From the NCBI GenBank assembly GCA_900770185.1, contig CAAGJM010000035.1:149761-213760 (forward strand): DNA of 64,000 nt, written 5' to 3'. Numbering within the stretch: the first letter of the stretch is position 1; every line of letters starts with the position of its first letter. Of this stretch, positions 256 through 62,095 are shown in pieces. The position numbers and the translations under genes were made by a program. The notes under the pieces were generated by a model. That model did no database searches and was not told the DNA's origin. It saw only the letters and a list, made by a program, of their open reading frames with translations. Origin of the DNA: Clostridia bacterium (GTDB lineage Bacteria; Bacillota; Clostridia; Christensenellales; Borkfalkiaceae).

Positions 256-393
256 GTTGTTACTCCTTAAATTTTATTGCGTTATACCCTTTAAGGGTTT
301 GTTACCTTTTGCTTGCCGCTTCGCTTGATTTAACGCGCATCTCGGCGCGTACTAAAAAGCGGTCTGAATTTTATTTAACTTTTTGCGCTTTGC

Positions 394-720
394 TTATTTA
401 ACTTTTTGCGCCTTGCGCTCTTCAACTTTCGCGTCGAGCCAAATCTCGAAGATTTCTTCGGGCTGATACCCCGTCGCACGGGCGAAAACTTCGCCGTCGT
501 CAAGCAGCAAAACCGTCGGCACGCGGTCAACCGCATACTCTTCCATTATTTTAACGGTGTTTTCGGACGCTTCTATGTGCACGAGCGTCAGTTCGGGGCG
601 TGCCTTACAAAGTTCGTAAAGCATCGGCATAAGCGTTAAGCAATTCGCGCACGATTCGCCGCTTATTTCAACGACCTGCAACCCCTTGAACTTTTCCTTA
701 TAATTATCGTCGTTTATCAT
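394..720 (-). CDS. thioredoxin-family protein with a CxxC (CANC) motif
   Basis: 108-aa ORF with a thioredoxin-like fold signature (..ISGESCANCLTLMP..). It sits between pflA and pflB, and its stop overlaps the pflA start. Confidence 0.6.
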   Translation of the reverse strand: MINDDNYKEKFKGLQVVEISGESCANCLTLMPMLYELCKARPELTLVHIEASENTVKIMEEYAVDRVPTVLLLDDGEVFARATGYQPEEIFEIWLDAKVEERKAQKVK

Positions 721-2966: not shown

Positions 2967-2985
2967 GGGCTTAACAAAAAATTAG

Positions 2986-3206
2986 AAATAGAGGCGCGTC
3001 CGATATGACAAACCGCGGCAGGGTTAAAAGTCGCGGCGGTAAAGGAGAGGACGCCGAAGAGAGAAATCTTACCCGAAGGTTTCTTGTCTGGGTGCAAAAG
3101 GAACACTTTTGCAACTGTCGCGGAAGCAATTCCGCGTTGCGCTATTGAATATCTTTTTTCGGTTTTCCGTGAAATCGCGATATTTAATAGTATCGCGATT
3201 TTTTGT
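2986..3206 (+). promoter_or_regulatory. lysine riboswitch (L-box) with an intrinsic terminator expression platform
   Basis: Conserved L-box blocks AGAGGCGCG, GGAGAGGACGCCGAAG, CUGGGUGCA and ACUGUC are present. A perfect 10-bp stem follows (AATCGCGATA / TATCGCGATT, 3173-3200) with a U-tract, about 40 nt before the transporter start codon. Confidence 0.65.
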
Positions 3207-37603: not shown

Positions 37604-39556
<1,953 letters not shown>

Positions 39557-39691
39557 TCACCTTGTAATTTTTGAATAAATTTTATATTAACCGGCGGGAG
39601 CAAGTCCCCGCCCTACGTTTGGTTTGCGTGTTTTTAATAGGGAAAATTGCTTATTGAGCTTAGCCCCCTTTTATTTCCCCTTTGACAAGGG

Positions 39692-40350
39692 GGACGGGAA
39701 TTGCCGCCCGAATTTAAGTCACGATTCGCTTCCGCGAGATATTTCGCTACGCTCAATATGACAACCATAACAAGTTTTAAACTATGCGGGCGAACGACGC
39801 TTTTGCTAAACTTCATGAAGGGGACGGGAATTGCCGCCCGGATTTAAGTCACTATTCGCTTCCGCAAGATATTTCGCCACGCTCAATATGACAAGCATAA
39901 CAAATTTTTAACTATACGGGCGAACAACGCTTTTGCTAAACTTAATGAAGGGGACGGGAATTGCCGCCCGGATTTAAGTCACTATTCGCTTCCGCGAGAT
40001 ATTTCGCTACGCTCAATATGACAAGCATAACAAGTTTAAACTATGCGGGCGAACGACGCTTTTGCTAAACTTAATAAGGGGGACGGGAATTACCGCCCGG
40101 ATTTAAGTCACCATTCGCTTCCGCGAGATATTTCGCTACGCTCAATATGACAAGCATAACAAATTTTTAACTATACGGGCAAACAACGCTTTTGCTAAAC
40201 TTCATGAAGGGGACGAGAATTGCCGCACGGATTTAAGTCACCATTCGCTTCCGCGAGATATTTCGCTACGCTCAATATGACAAGCATAACAAGTTTTTAA
40301 CTATGCGGGCGAGCAACGCTTTTGCTAAACTTCATGAAGGGGACGGGAAT
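39692..40350. repeat. tandem array of a 130-bp unit, 5 copies plus a truncated 6th, intergenic between pcrA and ligA
   Basis: Copies start at 39692, 39822, 39952, 40081, 40211 and 40341 (partial). They are about 90-95% identical. Two sequence variants of the internal segment alternate A-B-A-B-A. Confidence 0.9.
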
Positions 40351-40363
40351 TATTAACCGCTAA

Positions 40364-42709
40364 TCACACAACCTTCATCGGCGCGTATTTTGCGGCAAGA
40401 GTTTTTATGCCGGACGACTTAAACGCAACGTCTACTTTTTGCCCGCTTTCGTCGTTACGAACGGCTATGACGGTGCCCACGCCGAATTTTTGGTGTTCGA
40501 CGGTCTGACCTTGCTTATAAAGCGTTCCGCCCGCATTCGCTTCGACTTTTTTGTTTCCGCAATACCCCGACGAAAAACTTTTGACCGCTCCGCCGCCGAA
40601 TTTAGGCGCGGGGGCTTCGTCGGCGTAATATCCGAACTCGCTATCCGTTGAGCGCGAACCGCTTTTGCGGTCGCGATATAAGTCGCGTCCGCCCGAACCG
40701 TAACCGTCCGAGCCGTAGCCGCCTTGATTATTATTGCCGTATTTAGAGCCGCCATAACCCGAATAATCTCGCTTGCCGTAAGCAGGATAATCGTTAAGTT
40801 TGCTTTTATTATCCAAAAGCGGCTCGACTTCCTTTAAAAAGCGCGAGGCTTCTGTTATGCGCCTTTCGCCGTACAAATACCTGCTGCGGGCGCGAGTGAG
40901 CGTAAGCTCTTTTTCCGCGCGCGTTACGGCAACGTACATAAGCCTGCGTTCTTCTTCAAGAGTTTCAACCTCGTTGCACGCGCGGGACGAAGGTATAATG
41001 GTTTCGTCAAGCCCGACGACGTAAACGTACTTGAATTCAAGCCCTTTTACGGCGTGGATGGTGGCGACGGTAACGAAGTTACTGCTGTCCATATCGTCAA
41101 CGTCGCTGCTGAGCGTTATGCTGCTTAAATAATCGGTAAGCGTTAAAGTCGGGTTTGTTTTAACGAATTCTTCGGCAGAAGCGACTAATTCGTCAACGTT
41201 CATGCGCTTGGATAAATTTTCTTCCGTCTGCTCTTCGAACTGCGACAAAAAGTCTGTTTTAGCGATGACGTTTTTAATTATTTCGGCTACGTTTTTATCG
41301 ACCGAGTCGATTACAAGTTCGGTAACCGTGCTTTTAAACGCCGCTATTTTATTTTTGACCGCACCTTCTTTGCCGAGCGACGAATAATCGACGATTTCGT
41401 CGAATAAAGATATCCCTTCGGCGTCTGCCTGTTCGCGAAGCGCGGCGACGGTTTTTTCGCCAATGCCGCGGCGCGGAACGTTTATAATTCTAATAAGCGA
41501 CTCATTGTCGCGCGGGTTTTCAATCACGCGCAAATACGCCGTTAAATCCTTGATTTCTTTACGGTCGAAGAACTTAAAGCCGCCGTAAACTTTGTAAGGA
41601 ACGTTATATTTTAAAAATTCTTGTTCAAACGTGCGCGATAAGGCGTTTATGCGCATTAAAACCGCAAAATCGGAAGCCCGCGCCCCGTTTAAAATTTTTG
41701 CTTTTATGTTTAGCGCGACGAATTGCGCCTCGTCCTGCTCATCGTTGCCGACGTACATAACGGGTTTAAGTCCCGCGTCGTTATCCGTCCAAAGGGTCTT
41801 TTTCTTGCGCATATCGTTGTTTTTAATAACTAAGTTCGCGACGTTTAAAATGTTTTTAGTCGAGCGGTAATTTTGCTCTAACTTATAAACGCGCGCGCCT
41901 TTAAAAGACTTTTCAAAGTCTAAAATGTTGGCGATTTTCGCACCGCGCCAGCCGTAAATGCTCTGATCGTCGTCCCCGACGACAAAAATGTTTTTGTGCG
42001 CGCTCGCGAGCATTTTAACGATTTTGAACTGCACGGCGTTGGTATCCTGAAATTCGTCGACGTGAACGTAACGGAATTTTTCGGAATAATATTCCAAAAC
42101 TTCGGGGTGATCTTCAAAAAGGCGCAACGCATAAATCAATAAATCGTCAAAATCGAGCGCGTTGCACTTTTTAAGATAGTCGTTATACCTTATAAAAATC
42201 TCGGTAAGTTTTTCTATTTCGGGGATAAACGGATTGTCGTCTTTATATTCCGTAGGGGTAAAATCGCCGCATTTCGCGTTGGAAATTACGTCTTTAGCCT
42301 TTTTTAAGTACTTATCCGCCTCTAACCCCATATCCAAAATTATGCGTTTTACGGCGCGCTCTTTATCGTCGTCGTCATAAATGGAAAAATTTTTGCTGAA
42401 CCCCATTGCGGATATGTTGGCGCGCAAAATCCTCACGCACATAGAGTGAATGGTGGAAGCCCAGATTCTGTCCGCGCCGTCAATCATTTTTTCAAGGCGG
42501 GTCTTCATCTCGTCGGCGGCTTTGTTCGTGAAAGTTATGGCAAGAATGTTTGCGGGGTTCACTCCTAAGTCGTTTACAAGGTGCGCGATGCGCGTGGTTA
42601 AAACGCGGGTCTTTCCGCTGCCCGCGCCCGCAATAACCAAAACCGCGCCTTCCGTATCCATAACGGGAAGGCGTTGTGAAGAATTAAGTCTTTCGATGTA
42701 GTCAGTCAT
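40364..42709 (-). CDS. pcrA: ATP-dependent DNA helicase PcrA (UvrD family) with a Gly/Tyr/Ser/Arg-rich linker and a C-terminal Tudor-like domain
   Basis: MTDYIERLNSSQRLPV.., Walker A GAGSGKTRVL, UvrD motifs. The track ORF starts 15 codons upstream. Confidence 0.9.
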   Translation of the reverse strand: MTDYIERLNSSQRLPVMDTEGAVLVIAGAGSGKTRVLTTRIAHLVNDLGVNPANILAITFTNKAADEMKTRLEKMIDGADRIWASTIHSMCVRILRANISAMGFSKNFSIYDDDDKERAVKRIILDMGLEADKYLKKAKDVISNAKCGDFTPTEYKDDNPFIPEIEKLTEIFIRYNDYLKKCNALDFDDLLIYALRLFEDHPEVLEYYSEKFRYVHVDEFQDTNAVQFKIVKMLASAHKNIFVVGDDDQSIYGWRGAKIANILDFEKSFKGARVYKLEQNYRSTKNILNVANLVIKNNDMRKKKTLWTDNDAGLKPVMYVGNDEQDEAQFVALNIKAKILNGARASDFAVLMRINALSRTFEQEFLKYNVPYKVYGGFKFFDRKEIKDLTAYLRVIENPRDNESLIRIINVPRRGIGEKTVAALREQADAEGISLFDEIVDYSSLGKEGAVKNKIAAFKSTVTELVIDSVDKNVAEIIKNVIAKTDFLSQFEEQTEENLSKRMNVDELVASAEEFVKTNPTLTLTDYLSSITLSSDVDDMDSSNFVTVATIHAVKGLEFKYVYVVGLDETIIPSSRACNEVETLEEERRLMYVAVTRAEKELTLTRARSRYLYGERRITEASRFLKEVEPLLDNKSKLNDYPAYGKRDYSGYGGSKYGNNNQGGYGSDGYGSGGRDLYRDRKSGSRSTDSEFGYYADEAPAPKFGGGAVKSFSSGYCGNKKVEANAGGTLYKQGQTVEHQKFGVGTVIAVRNDESGQKVDVAFKSSGIKTLAAKYAPMKVV

Positions 42710-42906
42710 TTTATCACCGCTTAATATTTTAACACAGCTAAGCGATTTTAACAAGCCAAATTAAACGGGCGGCGCAAATTTTTAACCGGCAGTTTATCGC
42801 GGGCAAAAACCCGCTTACCCGCAGATTTTTTGAAAAAATAAATTTTGATTGATTTTTTTAAACTTTTAGAGTATAATAGTTGCAATTAAAAGAGGGGGGT
42901 GCGAAT

Positions 42907-49240: not shown

Positions 49241-51613
49241 ATGAAAAACGATAACGTAACTTGCGTTATTACCGGCATCGGCGTTATCAGCGCGATAGGT
49301 AAAAACGTTGAAGAAAACTGGTCGAACATTCTCGCTTCGAAAAGCGGAATCGACCACACCAAAACGATAGACACGGCTAACTGCTACGCCGATTTCAGTG
49401 CGGAAGTTAAAGATTTTGCCGTGCCCGAAAATATCGACCGCGCCACCGCTCTTTGCTTAAAAGCGACTCAAGAAGCGGTCGGCGACGCAAACCTCGGCGA
49501 CTTTAACGGCGATAAGCGCGTAAGCGTTATTATGGGAAGTTGCGTAGGCGGCGGCAGAAGCATAGAAGATTATTATAGAAAAGGTAAAGACGAAAACTGT
49601 ATTTTAAAAATGCCTATTTCCGCCATCGCTAACCACGTTGCAAAAGCGTATAACGCGGGCGGCGTCGTTACGAACGTTGCAAACGCCTGCGCGGCGGGTA
49701 CGATAAGCATCGCTTACGCAGCCGACCTTATACGCGCAAAAAAAGCGGACGTGGTTATAGCGGGGGGCGCGGACGCCTTCTCGTCGGTACCCTACTCCGG
49801 CTTTTTATCTTTGCACGCGCTTGACGAAAACGGCTGCTCGCCCTTCAACCACTCGCACGGCATAACGCTCGGCGAAGGCGCGGGCGCGGTGATAGTCGAA
49901 TCGCTCGAACACGCAAAAGCTCGCGGCGCGAAAATTTACTGCGAAGTTTTGGGTTCGGGGATAAGCAGCGACGCTCACCATATAACCGCACCCCGCCCCG
50001 ACGGTGAAGGTCAGATGAAAGCGATACGCTCGGCGATAAGCTCTTCGGGGATTAGCGAAGCCGACGTCGATTACGTAAACGCACACGGCACCGGCACCGC
50101 TAAGAACGACGAAGCGGAATTTTTGTCTTTACACACCATTTTCGACGGTAAAAACGACAATTTATCGGTTAGTTCCACAAAAGCATACACCGGGCATTGC
50201 TTAGGCGCGGCGGGCGCGATAGAAGCGGTTTACGCCATTAAAGCGTTGAAAGAAAACGTCGTTCCGCCCACCCTCGGATATAGTGAAGAAGATTTAGCCG
50301 TTTTGAAAGAAAAGGCGGGAACCATGGACTTTACGCCCAACAAACCCGTTAAAAAGCAGTTAAACGCCGTTATGAACAACTCGTTTGCGTTCGGCGGCAA
50401 TAACGCAAGCATAATTTTCGGCAAAAATAAACAAGCCCCAGAAAAAGCCGCGGAACGCCGCGACATCGTTATAACCGGCATAGGCGTCGTTTCGCCTATC
50501 GCGAACGGCAAAACGGGTTACGTCGAGAAATGCCTCGAAGGATTTGTTCCGACGGAAGCCGAACAATCTTCTAACGTAACGACTACCGACTACGACAAGC
50601 AAGGTCTTAAAATGGCGTTTTACAGAAAACTTGACCATTTAAGCCAGCTTCAGGCGGTTTCTGGCATGGACGCGCTTAACGACGGCGCATACAAGGTAAG
50701 CGACGAAAACGCATTTAACATAGGTATGATTATCGGCACTTCGGAAGGCGCGCTCGGTCCGAGCCTTGACTTCCAGAGTATTATCGCCGAAAAAGGAAAC
50801 GCAGGCGGCAGCGCGTTCAAGTTCCCCAATACCGTTTATAATGCGGCGGGCGGATATTTATCTATCTGCTCCGGCATAAAAGGTTATAACGTGACCGTAA
50901 CGAACGGCGCGCAATCGGGGCTTCAATCTGCGGCTTATGCGATGCAGGTTATAAGAAACGGCGTCGAAGACGCGATGATTGCTACCGGCACCGACGAAAA
51001 CAGCGGAATTATTTCCGAAATTTATCATATTTTAGGCGTTGCCGCGGGCGAAAGGGTAAACCCCTACGACGGCAAAGATAAATTTTCTCTTTCGTGCGGA
51101 AGCATATCTAACCTTATGGAAACGAAAGAATCGGCAATTAAGCGCGGCGCGACCGTTTACGCGAAAGTTACGGGCTACGGCATGGCGCACGCAAGCGTTG
51201 ACTTCGGCACCGTCGACGGCTCTATCGCAGGTTTAAAAGACGCTATAAGCGAGGCTCTTAGCGACGCAAACGTATCCGCAAGCGACGTAAGCGCGGTTAT
51301 AGGTTTTGCAAACGGCTTAAAAGTTATTGACGATATAGAAACAAACGGGCTTAAAAAGTTCTTCGATTTAGAAAAAACGCCCGTTATAACCGTTAAAAAG
51401 CGCATGGGCGAAGCCCGCGCGGCTTCTGCGGCGCTTGCTCTATCCCACGCCGCCCTTATGCTTCACGGCGATATCGCCGCTGAAAAGGACGCTTACGTTT
51501 TCGTGAACGGCAAGCCCGAACAAACGGAAGTTAAAAGCGCAAATCTTAATAAAATACTCGTCGTATCGTATGCGGTCGGCGGGTCATACACGGCAATCGT
51601 CGTAGAAAAATAG
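49241..51613 (+). CDS. ketosynthase plus chain-length-factor-like didomain protein (KS-CLF fusion)
   Basis: Domain 1 has the condensing Cys (VANACAAG) and both His motifs (NAHGTGT, KAYTGHCLGAAG). Domain 2 aligns to domain 1 but has Gln at the Cys position (VTVTNGAQSGL) and no His motifs. Confidence 0.8.
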   Translation: MKNDNVTCVITGIGVISAIGKNVEENWSNILASKSGIDHTKTIDTANCYADFSAEVKDFAVPENIDRATALCLKATQEAVGDANLGDFNGDKRVSVIMGSCVGGGRSIEDYYRKGKDENCILKMPISAIANHVAKAYNAGGVVTNVANACAAGTISIAYAADLIRAKKADVVIAGGADAFSSVPYSGFLSLHALDENGCSPFNHSHGITLGEGAGAVIVESLEHAKARGAKIYCEVLGSGISSDAHHITAPRPDGEGQMKAIRSAISSSGISEADVDYVNAHGTGTAKNDEAEFLSLHTIFDGKNDNLSVSSTKAYTGHCLGAAGAIEAVYAIKALKENVVPPTLGYSEEDLAVLKEKAGTMDFTPNKPVKKQLNAVMNNSFAFGGNNASIIFGKNKQAPEKAAERRDIVITGIGVVSPIANGKTGYVEKCLEGFVPTEAEQSSNVTTTDYDKQGLKMAFYRKLDHLSQLQAVSGMDALNDGAYKVSDENAFNIGMIIGTSEGALGPSLDFQSIIAEKGNAGGSAFKFPNTVYNAAGGYLSICSGIKGYNVTVTNGAQSGLQSAAYAMQVIRNGVEDAMIATGTDENSGIISEIYHILGVAAGERVNPYDGKDKFSLSCGSISNLMETKESAIKRGATVYAKVTGYGMAHASVDFGTVDGSIAGLKDAISEALSDANVSASDVSAVIGFANGLKVIDDIETNGLKKFFDLEKTPVITVKKRMGEARAASAALALSHAALMLHGDIAAEKDAYVFVNGKPEQTEVKSANLNKILVVSYAVGGSYTAIVVEK

Positions 51614-57320: not shown

Positions 57321-57394
57321 GCGGATGTAGTTCAGTGGTAAAACAACGGCTTCCCAAGCCGTGGTTGCGGGTCCGATTCCCGTCATCCGCTCCA
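57321..57394 (+). tRNA. tRNA-Gly (anticodon CCC)
   Basis: Hand-folded cloverleaf: acceptor GCGGATG/CATCCGC, anticodon stem ACGGC/GCCGT with loop TTCCCAA, T-arm, encoded CCA. A hairpin terminator follows at 57396-57422. Confidence 0.8.
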
Positions 57395-61938: not shown

Positions 61939-62014
61939 TGGAGCGGGAAACGGGACTCGGACCCGCGACAACTGCCTTGGCAAGGCAGTGCTCTACCAAC
62001 TGAGCTACTCCCGC
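61939..62014 (-). tRNA. tRNA-Gly (anticodon GCC)
   Basis: Minus-strand cloverleaf GCGGGAGTAGCTCAGTTGGTAGAGCACTGCCTTGCCAAGGCAG...CCCGCTCCA. A hairpin plus T-run terminator follows at about 61880-61935. Confidence 0.85.
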
Positions 62015-62019
62015 ATAAA

Positions 62020-62095
62020 TGGTGGGAATTATAGGGCTCGAACCTATGACCCTCTGCTTGTAAGGCAGATGCTCTCCCAGCTGAGCTAAACTCCC
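62020..62095 (-). tRNA. tRNA-Val (anticodon UAC)
   Basis: Minus-strand cloverleaf GGGAGTTTAGCTCAGCTGGGAGAGCATCTGCCTTACAAGCAGAG..TTCGAGCCC..CCCACCA. Confidence 0.85.

What the first reader, a model, noticed from the sequence alone, without database searches (positions are those of the whole stretch)
39692..40350. Five-and-a-bit tandem copies of a 130-bp unit inserted between pcrA and ligA, with alternating A/B variants
Unit starts are at 39692, 39822, 39952, 40081, 40211 and a truncated copy at 40341. Copies are about 90-95% identical. An internal about 30-bp segment exists in two versions (...CAAGTTTTAAACTATGCGGGCGAACGACGC... vs ...CAAATTTTTAACTATACGGGCGAACAACGC...) that alternate A-B-A-B-A. 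This implies duplication of a 260-bp dimer or ongoing gene conversion. The period of 130 is not a multiple of 3, so it is not a repeated peptide. The whole unit repeats without unique spacers, so it is not CRISPR. pcrA-ligA are normally adjacent and co-transcribed in Firmicutes, so this array sits in an intercistronic position. Each unit contains complementary CGCCCG/CGGGCG segments about 85 nt apart and could fold into a structured RNA.
Basis: seen in the sequence. Interest (0 to 1): 0.65.

Follow-up and report, generated by a model that had tools for sequence, protein, structure and literature searches.

The report
Tandemly amplified REP-like hairpin repeat
The 130-bp tandem repeat between the helicase gene pcrA and the ligase gene ligA is real, but it is a strain-variable local amplification of a small hairpin-forming "junk-like" intergenic repeat (REP type) found scattered in gut Clostridia, not a dedicated new RNA gene or a conserved part of the operon.

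Summary
There are 5.1 head-to-tail copies of a 130-bp unit at 39690-40351, about 92% identical, with alternate units most alike. The array lies between pcrA and ligA, both on the minus strand.

Each unit has two halves. About 63 nt occur only at this locus. About 64 nt form a core that recurs in at least 11 human-gut metagenome loci. The core has a 5' TGTC tag. It then has a hairpin of 5 bp, a tandem G·A, 2 bp and a GNA/GNRA loop. A second 4-bp hairpin with a GGAA loop follows. Stems covary across family members. No Rfam family matches.

The first hairpin fits most features of the CGTC/TGTC-tagged REP superfamily (Di Nocera 2013). A GTAG-tagged REP-like hairpin follows the array.

Copy number is 5, 3, 0 and about 2 in genomes whose LigA is 100, 100, 98 and 95% identical. 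More distant relatives (89, 86 and 69%) have a 22-, 97- or 2-bp junction with no element.

Best reading: a recent REP-type insertion expanded by unequal recombination. It is probably co-transcribed and at most a modulator of pcrA-ligA mRNA. Interest is low to moderate.

The parts
39690..40351 (-). Tandem array of 5.1 copies of a 130-bp unit. Units in plus coordinates: u1 39692-39821, u2 39822-39951, u3 39952-40080, u4 40081-40210, u5 40211-40340. The terminal 13-nt partial copy AATTCCCGTCCCC is at 40339-40351. The transcript runs u5 to u1.
   Evidence: TRF, the repeat finder, unit comparison.
40243..40283 (-). Core double hairpin of u5. It reads TGTC tag, ATATT-GA-GC-GTA-GC-GA-AATAT hairpin, C, then TCGC-GGAA-GCGA hairpin.
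   Evidence: Covariance model R1 hit, 67.6 bits, E = 8e-12; structural parse.
40113..40153 (-). Core double hairpin of u4.
   Evidence: R1 hit, 67.6 bits.
39984..40024 (-). Core double hairpin of u3.
   Evidence: R1 hit, 67.6 bits.
39854..39894 (-). Core double hairpin of u2. Its loop is GTG, and the second hairpin has a U·G wobble where the others have C-G.
   Evidence: R1 hit, 61.0 bits; parse.
39724..39764 (-). Core double hairpin of u1.
   Evidence: R1 hit, 67.6 bits.
39677..39693 (-). CCCCC-TTGTCAAA-GGGG hairpin directly after the last unit. The same module follows a single core at an unrelated locus (L020) and in L005.
   Evidence: Sequence; fold; BLAST of positions 67-162 to L020.
39593..39616 (-). 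GTAG-tagged REP-like hairpin GTAGGGCGGGGACTTGCTCCCGCC, 40 nt upstream of the ligA start. The same motif follows cores at other loci, where it sometimes has a T-run and looks like a terminator. It also occurs on 18 IMG/VR contigs.
40170..40198 (-). Promoter-like TTAGCA-17-TATAGT in B-variant unit u4. A second copy lies at 39911-39939 in u2. The number of such sites is not above chance.
   Evidence: 3 sites found against 1.9 ± 1.3 in shuffles.
40364..42754 (-). pcrA (UvrD-family helicase), the upstream gene.
   Evidence: Pfam UvrD-helicase, UvrD_C and PcrA_UvrD_tudor.
37604..39553 (-). ligA (NAD-dependent DNA ligase), the downstream gene. Its ribosome-binding site reads AAGGTGAATTATG.
   Evidence: Pfam DNA_ligase_aden, OB, HHH_2 and BRCT; sequence.

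Best explanation
The array is a recent, strain-variable tandem amplification (a VNTR) of a 130-bp segment. That segment was created when a small REP-type intergenic repeat landed in the normally tight pcrA-ligA junction of one species-level lineage of uncultured gut Clostridia.

Each unit carries a TGTC-tagged hairpin. It has 5 bp, a tandem G·A, 2 bp and a GNA loop. A 4-bp GGAA-loop hairpin follows. A GTAG-tagged REP-like hairpin closes the spacer.

Inferred origin: copy number changes by unequal homologous recombination or replication slippage between units, in steps of 130 or 259 bp, from 0.1 to 5.1 copies.

Inferred function: the array is read through as part of the pcrA-ligA transcript, where it forms a row of stable stem-loops. 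Like REP/BIME and BOX elements, these could act as 3'-exonuclease barriers or processing sites. They could also physically uncouple ligA translation from pcrA. The array is dispensable, because near-identical and related genomes lack it.
For: Shown:
- Repeat anatomy.
- The core recurs at 11 or more unrelated gut-metagenome loci and in a second locus of a related MAG. The other half of the unit is found only at pcrA-ligA.
- Stems covary: ATATT/AATAT, ACCCT/AGGGT and ATTCT/AGAAT; GC/GC and AC/GT; TCGC/GCGA, TCGT/ACGA and CCGC/GCGG. On the alignment 94.9% of cells are paired, 4 pairs change on both sides, and 0 of 500 shuffles reach the covariation score.
- Model R1 finds non-seed copies and distant TGTC hairpins with other compensated stems.
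- Only 2 of the 18 variable unit columns fall in the 41-nt core, and both keep pairing.
- Copy number against LigA identity: 5.1 and 3.1 at 100%, 0 at 98%, 1.9 at 95%, and no element at 89, 86 and 69%, where spacers are 22, 97 and 2 bp.
- L002 equals the window minus 259 bp, with a 38-nt homologous junction and identical 2-kb flanks.
- A second locus shows 2 versus 1 copies (L007 against L009 and L010).
- No terminator is predicted in the array.
- In all informative loci (about 9-10 independent ones) the core points the same way as the upstream gene.
- The features match the published description of CGTC/TGTC-tagged REPs. That description also places REPs downstream of ORFs (PMC3733652).
Against: - No expression data exist, so co-transcription and any effect on mRNA are inferred.
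- Between the window and L005, the last unit plus tail is 90% identical (255/282). Four-fold degenerate sites in ligA and pcrA are only 71-72% identical. This hints at constraint, although the first 300 nt of ligA are also 89% identical at four-fold sites, so a recombination tract is an alternative.
- REP membership is incomplete. The stem is interrupted by G·A pairs, the loop is 3 nt, the tail is CTC rather than CCA, and the arrangement is head-to-tail, which the 2013 survey calls negligible for CGTC REPs.
- The family appears low-copy here. There is no other copy in the 64-kb window.
- No transposase is known.
Confidence: 0.68

Rival explanations
1. The array is a set of five small-RNA genes, or one processed multi-unit RNA. 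Each unit would have its own promoter (TTAGCA-17-TATAGT/CATAGT) and would produce a roughly 100-nt structured RNA containing the double hairpin. It would act in trans as a regulator or as a protein sponge, for example through the GGA-containing loops.
For: - Promoter-like hexamers occur in u2 and u4, and TTAACA-17-CATAGT occurs in L005.
- The minus strand folds better than the plus strand (-32.9 against -20.8 kcal/mol).
- G·U pairs are valid only on the minus strand.
- The spacer is more conserved than four-fold sites.
Against: - The number of promoter-like sites is at chance level (3 against 1.9 ± 1.3).
- A-type units have CATAGT.
- The promoter-bearing half of the unit is absent from all other family loci.
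- No terminator follows any unit.
- The unit fold z-score is only -1.5.
- A 98%-identical lineage has 0 units.
- No Rfam family matches.
Confidence: 0.1
2. The array was built at the DNA level by a site-specific or single-strand (HUH/RAYT-like or other) recombinase. This enzyme would recognise the TGTC- or GTAG-tagged hairpins and insert copies next to existing ones. On this view the array is a NIME/BIME-like recombination hotspot rather than the product of simple slippage.
For: - Tagged hairpins of both super-families are present.
- Relatives form inverted doublets like REPINs, and they insert in frame into a phage terminase gene, which implies mobility.
- Mosaic clusters of several cores occur in L011 and L018.
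- The orientation bias could reflect the replication strand.
- NIME arrays of dRS3 (CGTC-1) vary in repeat number between strains (PMC1797815).
Against: - The units here are whole 130-bp copies that include non-family sequence. The L002 deletion has a 38-nt homologous junction. Both fit homologous unequal exchange better than hairpin-targeted insertion.
- No transposase or recombinase was identified.
- CGTC REPs are reported to lack a dedicated transposase.
Confidence: 0.15
3. The array is an assembly artefact, or it is a cryptic coding or CRISPR-like feature.
For: Metagenome assemblers mishandle tandem repeats, and contig L003 breaks inside the array.
Against: - An independent assembly has the identical 810-bp spacer.
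- Variants with distinct junction sequences cannot arise by k-mer collapse.
- There are no unique spacers.
- ORFs are 60 aa or shorter. The 30-aa unit ORF lacks a Shine-Dalgarno sequence, and its ATG is lost in one L005 unit.
Confidence: 0.02

Closest known systems
CGTC/TGTC-tagged REPs (Di Nocera, De Gregorio & Rocco 2013, PMC3733652)
   Same: - There is an unpaired 5' TGTC tag.
- The stem opens with A-T then T-A.
- The stem span is 9 positions with a short loop.
- There is a short unpaired C-rich 3' tail.
- The element lies downstream of an ORF, between unidirectional genes.
- Relatives form inverted doublets and occur inside genes.
- The paper notes REPs in or near UvrD/Rep helicase and DNA ligase genes.
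   Different: - These REPs were reported in Proteobacteria, Chlorobi, Bacteroidetes, Spirochaetes and Thermotogae, not Firmicutes.
- Here the stem is interrupted by a tandem G·A, the loop is 3 nt and the tail is CTC.
- Here the REP is always followed by a second GGAA-loop hairpin.
- Here the arrangement is strictly head-to-tail, which the paper calls negligible for CGTC REPs.
- The published consensus figure could not be read.
Neisserial intergenic mosaic elements (NIME: dRS3 plus RS arrays; PMC1797815)
   Same: - Short tagged hairpin repeats (dRS3, classed as CGTC-1) alternate with blocks of other sequence about 50-150 bp long.
- Array length and repeat number differ between strains at syntenic positions.
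   Different: - NIME arrays mix many different RS families, whereas here one 130-bp unit is simply reiterated.
- NIMEs are genus-wide and abundant, whereas here there is one locus in 64 kb.
- dRS3 is a target of a phage recombinase, and no recombinase is known here.
Pneumococcal BOX elements (boxA-boxBn-boxC; PMC3049150)
   Same: - It is a modular intergenic repeat in a Firmicute.
- An internal module is present in variable tandem copy number, which is used for strain typing.
- It is predicted to fold when co-transcribed and to affect neighbouring genes.
   Different: - There is no sequence similarity.
- boxB is 45 bp and flanked by boxA and boxC.
- BOX is high-copy across the genome.
E. coli REP/BIME clusters
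   Same: - They are clusters of GTAG-tagged hairpins in intercistronic positions of operons.
- Their known effects are mRNA stabilisation and transcriptional attenuation.
   Different: - BIMEs alternate inverted REPs with short linkers, whereas here the copies are direct and 130 bp apart.
- The roles in E. coli are taken from the literature and from my own knowledge, and were not tested here.
Tandem RNA-gene arrays (type III antitoxin ToxI repeats; LhrC1-5 sRNAs)
   Same: Non-coding units in direct tandem lie upstream of a gene.
   Different: - ToxI units are about 36 nt and precede a toxin gene after a terminator.
- LhrC copies each have a promoter and a terminator.
- Neither feature is present here. 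This comparison rests on my own knowledge.

Membership tests
CGTC/TGTC-tagged REP superfamily (PMC3733652) | [quoted passage not shown] | tested here: met
   TGTC precedes the hairpin in all five units. Relatives have CGTC or TGTC.
CGTC/TGTC-tagged REP superfamily (PMC3733652) | Stem of 8-9 bp with complementary A-T residues in the first and second positions | tested here: inconclusive
   The stem spans 9 positions (ATATT-GA-GC) and starts A-T then T-A. Positions 6-7 are a tandem G·A, not Watson-Crick pairs.
CGTC/TGTC-tagged REP superfamily (PMC3733652) | Loop of 4-5 nt | tested here: inconclusive
   The window units have a 3-nt loop (GTA or GTG). Family members have 3-5 nt, often GNRA.
CGTC/TGTC-tagged REP superfamily (PMC3733652) | Short unpaired 3' tail, consensus CCA | tested here: inconclusive
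   The tail is C/CTC here, and CCC or CCG in distant relatives.
CGTC/TGTC-tagged REP superfamily (PMC3733652) | Many dispersed copies per genome, mostly as head-head dimers | tested here: not met
   In 64 kb, all five copies are head-to-tail at one locus. The whole genome was not available. Inverted doublets are seen only in distant relatives (L044).
CGTC/TGTC-tagged REP superfamily (PMC3733652) | Match to the published family consensus (CGTC-1 to CGTC-4, Figure 2) | not testable with these tools
   Figures are not held, and the supplements contain no matching strings.
GTAG-tagged REP | GTAG tetranucleotide next to a GC-rich palindrome, in many copies | tested here: met
   GTAG plus GGCGGGG-ACTTGC-CTCCCGCC at 39593-39616. 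The same element occurs at other loci and on 18 IMG/VR contigs, including an inverted doublet.
GTAG-tagged REP | Associated RAYT (IS200-like Y1 transposase) flanked by the repeats | not tested
   Only 64 kb of the genome is held, and no systematic scan for a Y1 transposase was run.
Rfam structured RNA families | Covariance-model match at or near the gathering score | tested here: not met
   The only match in the array is isrK at 19.6 bits against a gathering score of 50. Nothing matches the cores in 10 related loci.
CRISPR array | Short repeats separated by unique spacers | tested here: not met
   The whole 130-bp unit repeats and there is no unique sequence between units.
Independent sRNA genes | Own promoter and intrinsic terminator per unit | tested here: not met
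   No terminator-like site lies on the minus strand, and promoter-like sites are at chance level.

The most novel reading that the evidence does not exclude
The TGTC hairpin plus GGAA hairpin is an undescribed, selectively maintained RNA module of gut Clostridia and their phages. It could be a binding or processing signal. Its five-fold reiteration inside the pcrA-ligA transcript would then be functional, as a tunable regulator of ligase/helicase stoichiometry or as a sponge or source of unit-length RNAs. Copy number would act as a contingency switch. The 90% conservation of the spacer, against 71% at neutral sites, would then reflect constraint rather than a recombination tract.
Probability: 0.12. 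Interest if true: 0.6.

Novelty: new member of a known kind. Interest (0 to 1): 0.3.

Why it matters
If the main reading is right, the finding is ordinary genome biology: a REP/BOX/NIME-like repeat cluster behaving as a VNTR.

It still has some practical and descriptive value:
- It extends tagged-REP hairpins to uncultured gut Clostridia and their phages, a phylum not covered by the 2013 survey.
- It gives a clean natural series of 0, about 2, 3 and 5 copies in otherwise near-identical pcrA-ligA operons. This could be used to measure what REP-type hairpins do to a bicistronic mRNA.
- It is a strain-typing marker.
- It is a known cause of contig breaks in metagenome assemblies.

It would matter more only if the double hairpin proves to be a functional RNA signal.

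Tried and rejected
- **Rfam.** The gathering-score search of the whole window and the E-value search of the array gave no family. Ten related loci also gave nothing.
- **Hammerhead or other ribozyme.** By eye, GUC followed by CUGA...GAA resembles a hammerhead. However, the CUGAnGA core is absent and no Rfam ribozyme matches.
- **Integron attC.** GTTAAAT fits the GTTRRRY motif, but there is no inverted R''/L'' partner, and the repeat finder reports 0 inverted repeats.
- **Coding repeat or micropeptide.** The 30-aa ORF in each unit has no ribosome-binding site, and its ATG is lost in L005.
It is not in the MFE fold, and its 5' half is locus-specific.
- **A 13-bp helix between the upstream half and the core in window units.** It appears in the MFE fold, but substitutions in L005 break it, so it is not conserved.
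- **Phage or plasmid origin of the spacer.** There is no blastn match, and the core 20-mer is absent from IMG/VR.
- **Literature string searches.** Searches for the motif and for its spurious peptides found nothing relevant.
- **First LigA homology search.** It timed out and was repeated successfully.
- **Generic scan for other GTAG/CGTC-tagged hairpins in the window.** It gave only noise apart from the hairpin at 39616.
- **Chance metagenome hits.** Eight of the 19 metagenome hits to the 20-mer were chance matches in coding DNA.

Full report
**1. The observation**

The region 39690-40351 is a clean tandem array. Tandem Repeats Finder reports period 130, 5.1 copies, 92% matches and score 1142. 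An alternative description has period 259 and 94% matches. Start-to-start spacings are 130, 130, 129, 130, 130. A 50-nt stretch of the unit occurs five times in the window and never in shuffled sequence.

Pfam identifies the flanking ORFs as PcrA (40364-42754) and NAD-dependent LigA (37604-39553). Both are on the minus strand, so the array is intercistronic and its transcript strand is the minus strand.

Alternate units are the most alike. u1-u3 differ at 7 positions and u2-u4 at 6, whereas the neighbours u1-u2, u2-u3 and u3-u4 differ at 9-11. u5 is a mosaic of the two types.

An independent ENA assembly (L001) carries the identical 810-bp spacer.

**2. What the unit is made of**

A 24-mer from the unit hit two contigs of one related MAG, "uncultured Clostridia bacterium" from a Hadza gut sample. 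One contig is its own pcrA-ligA spacer with 1.9 units (L005). The other is a different locus between radC and a BspA-type LRR gene (L004).

A 20-mer then found 19 metagenome loci. Eleven are true relatives in human-gut contigs, and eight are chance hits in coding DNA.

BLAST of the last unit plus tail against all loci gave the following:
- Positions 64-127 of the unit (the core) recur elsewhere.
- The hairpin 195-250 in the tail also recurs elsewhere.
- The first roughly 63 nt of the unit occur only at pcrA-ligA.

The core, in transcript orientation, reads TGTC | ATATT-GA-GC-GTA-GC-GA-AATAT | C | TCGC-GGAA-GCGA.

Other family members carry compensated stems:
- ACCCT/AGGGT and ATTCT/AGAAT in the first helix.
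- AC/GT in its apical part.
- TCGT/ACGA and CCGC/GCGG in the second helix.
- Loops of 3-5 nt, often GNRA.

On an 18-sequence alignment, 94.9% of cells are paired and four pairs change on both sides. No shuffle reaches the observed covariation score, and slid registers collapse to 16-48% paired.

A covariance model built from this alignment gave the following:
- It recovers copies that were not in the seed.
- It finds no copy in the window beyond the five units, and none in relatives L025-L029.
- It picks up distant hairpins on IMG/VR contigs of the form yTGTC-A-YYYY-GA-[variable, self-complementary insert]-GA-RRRR-T-CC.

Within the array, only 2 of 18 variable columns fall in the 41-nt core, and both preserve pairing.

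Thermodynamic folding of the whole unit is unremarkable, with z = -1.5. It is better on the minus strand than on the plus strand.

No Rfam family matches.

**3. The tail**

After the last unit come two further elements:
- A CCCCC...GGGG hairpin, which also follows a single core in L020 and L005.
- GTAGGGCGGGGACTTGCTCCCGCC at 39593-39616.

The second element follows cores at several loci. There it sometimes has a T-run and looks like an intrinsic terminator. It also occurs on 18 IMG/VR contigs, once as an inverted doublet 25 bp apart.

**4. Comparison with relatives at the same locus**

| Locus | LigA aa identity to window | pcrA-ligA spacer | Units |
|---|---|---|---|
| Window and L001 | 100% | 810 bp | 5.1 |
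| L002 | 100% | 551 bp | 3.1 |
| L029 | 98% | 170 bp | 0 |
| L005 | 95% | 403 bp | 1.9 |
| L026/L027 | 89% | 22 bp | no element |
| L025 | 86% | 97 bp, unrelated sequence | no element |
| L028 | 69% | 2 bp | no element |

L002 equals the window minus 259 bp. Its junction has 38 nt of homology between two A-type units, and 2 kb on either side are identical.

L029 keeps CAATTCCCGTTCCCC plus the tail. Its junction sequence could not arise by k-mer collapse.

The ancestral state is therefore a tight pcrA-ligA junction. The element is a recent arrival in one species-level clade, and its copy number is labile. A second locus (L007 against L009 and L010) shows 2 versus 1 copies of the core.

**5. One observation that points the other way**

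Between the window and L005, the last unit plus tail is 90% identical (255/282). Four-fold degenerate sites are 71% identical in ligA and 72% in pcrA, and only 59% in the last 300 nt of pcrA. This could mean constraint on the spacer.

The first 300 nt of ligA are also 89% identical at four-fold sites. A recombination tract covering the spacer and the 5' end of ligA is therefore an equally simple explanation. I could not separate the two.

**6. Orientation and transcription**

In every informative locus (about 9-10 independent ones), the core has the orientation of the gene upstream of it. Wobble pairs are mostly valid only in that orientation.

This fits an element that is tolerated, or acts, in 3'UTR or intercistronic RNA. 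A replication-strand bias of a single-strand DNA mechanism would look the same in a Firmicute.

No terminator-like site is predicted in the array. Promoter-like hexamers (TTAGCA-17-TATAGT in u2 and u4) are no more frequent than in shuffles. The zero-copy allele has no promoter-like site in its spacer at all. Together these argue that ligA is normally read through from pcrA.

**7. What is known**

Di Nocera et al. (PMC3733652) divide REPs into GTAG- and CGTC-tagged super-families. They describe CGTC REPs as follows:
- The tag is often TGTC.
- Stems are 8-9 bp and start with complementary A-T residues.
- Loops are 4-5 nt.
- Tails are about CCA.
- Most copies are head-head dimers, and head-tail dimers are negligible.
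- They lie downstream of ORFs.
- They are sometimes intragenic, notably in replication and repair genes, including UvrD/Rep helicase and DNA ligase.
- They have no dedicated transposase.
- They were found in five phyla, not including Firmicutes.

The first hairpin of the core meets the tag and A-T criteria. It partly meets the stem, loop and tail criteria. It fails the arrangement criterion.

Distant relatives behave like mobile palindromes. In L044, an inverted doublet and a GTAG hairpin sit in frame inside a phage terminase large-subunit gene.

Neisserial NIME arrays (dRS3, classed as CGTC-1, alternating with 50-150-bp RS blocks and variable between strains; PMC1797815) are the nearest architectural analogue. 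So are pneumococcal BOX elements, which carry a variable number of tandem boxB modules (PMC3049150).

**8. Verdict**

The repeat is real. Its best explanation is a REP-type intergenic element that inserted into pcrA-ligA and was amplified, together with about 63 nt of adjacent sequence, by unequal exchange.

Its mechanism of action, if any, is inferred by analogy: structured intercistronic RNA that affects decay, processing or translational coupling.

Rival readings keep minority probabilities. They are an sRNA gene array, a recombinase-built array, and a selected functional RNA module.

The finding is a new member of a known kind, and interest is low to moderate.

Noticed in passing
L044:1-1700 (IMG/VR contig): A phage terminase large-subunit ORF (Pfam Terminase_6N) carries several in-frame inserts. 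They are an inverted doublet of TGTC-tagged hairpins (696-782), a duplicated 16-aa block (about 875-965) and a GTAG hairpin (992-1015). A second doublet lies at 1510-1611, followed by a CTCAACT heptamer run from 1617. These resemble RPE-like intragenic repeats.
   Followed up: partly
L030:3510-3582: Two GTAGGGCGGGGGCTTGCTCCCGCC hairpins lie in inverted orientation 25 bp apart, which is REPIN-like architecture, on a viral contig. The same hairpin occurs on 18 IMG/VR contigs.
   Followed up: partly
L007:970-1127 versus L009:372-413 and L010:138-179: The same intergenic locus in different gut samples holds two tandem cores (116-bp period) or one. This is an independent case of copy-number variation in the family.
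   Followed up: partly
L018:380-750 and L011:170-590 (minus strand): These are mosaic clusters of four cores with different compensated stems. One core is inverted. The cluster ends in the GTAG hairpin with a T-run, giving BIME/NIME-like mosaics downstream of genes.
   Followed up: partly
window 39554-39830 versus L005:2082-2363: The last unit plus tail is 90% identical between lineages whose four-fold degenerate sites are only 71-72% identical. The first 300 nt of ligA are also unusually similar (31/35 four-fold sites). The cause, constraint or a recombination tract, is unresolved.
   Followed up: partly
window 2981-3152 (+): A lysine riboswitch aptamer (Rfam RF00168, 87 bits).
   Followed up: no
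window 57321-57391 (+), 61942-62014 (-), 62023-62095 (-): Three tRNA genes, by Rfam.
   Followed up: no
window 371-429 and 51309-51379: Two short tandem repeats: period 23 with 2-2.5 copies, and period 33 with 2.2 copies and 12% indels. Both were reported by TRF.
   Followed up: no
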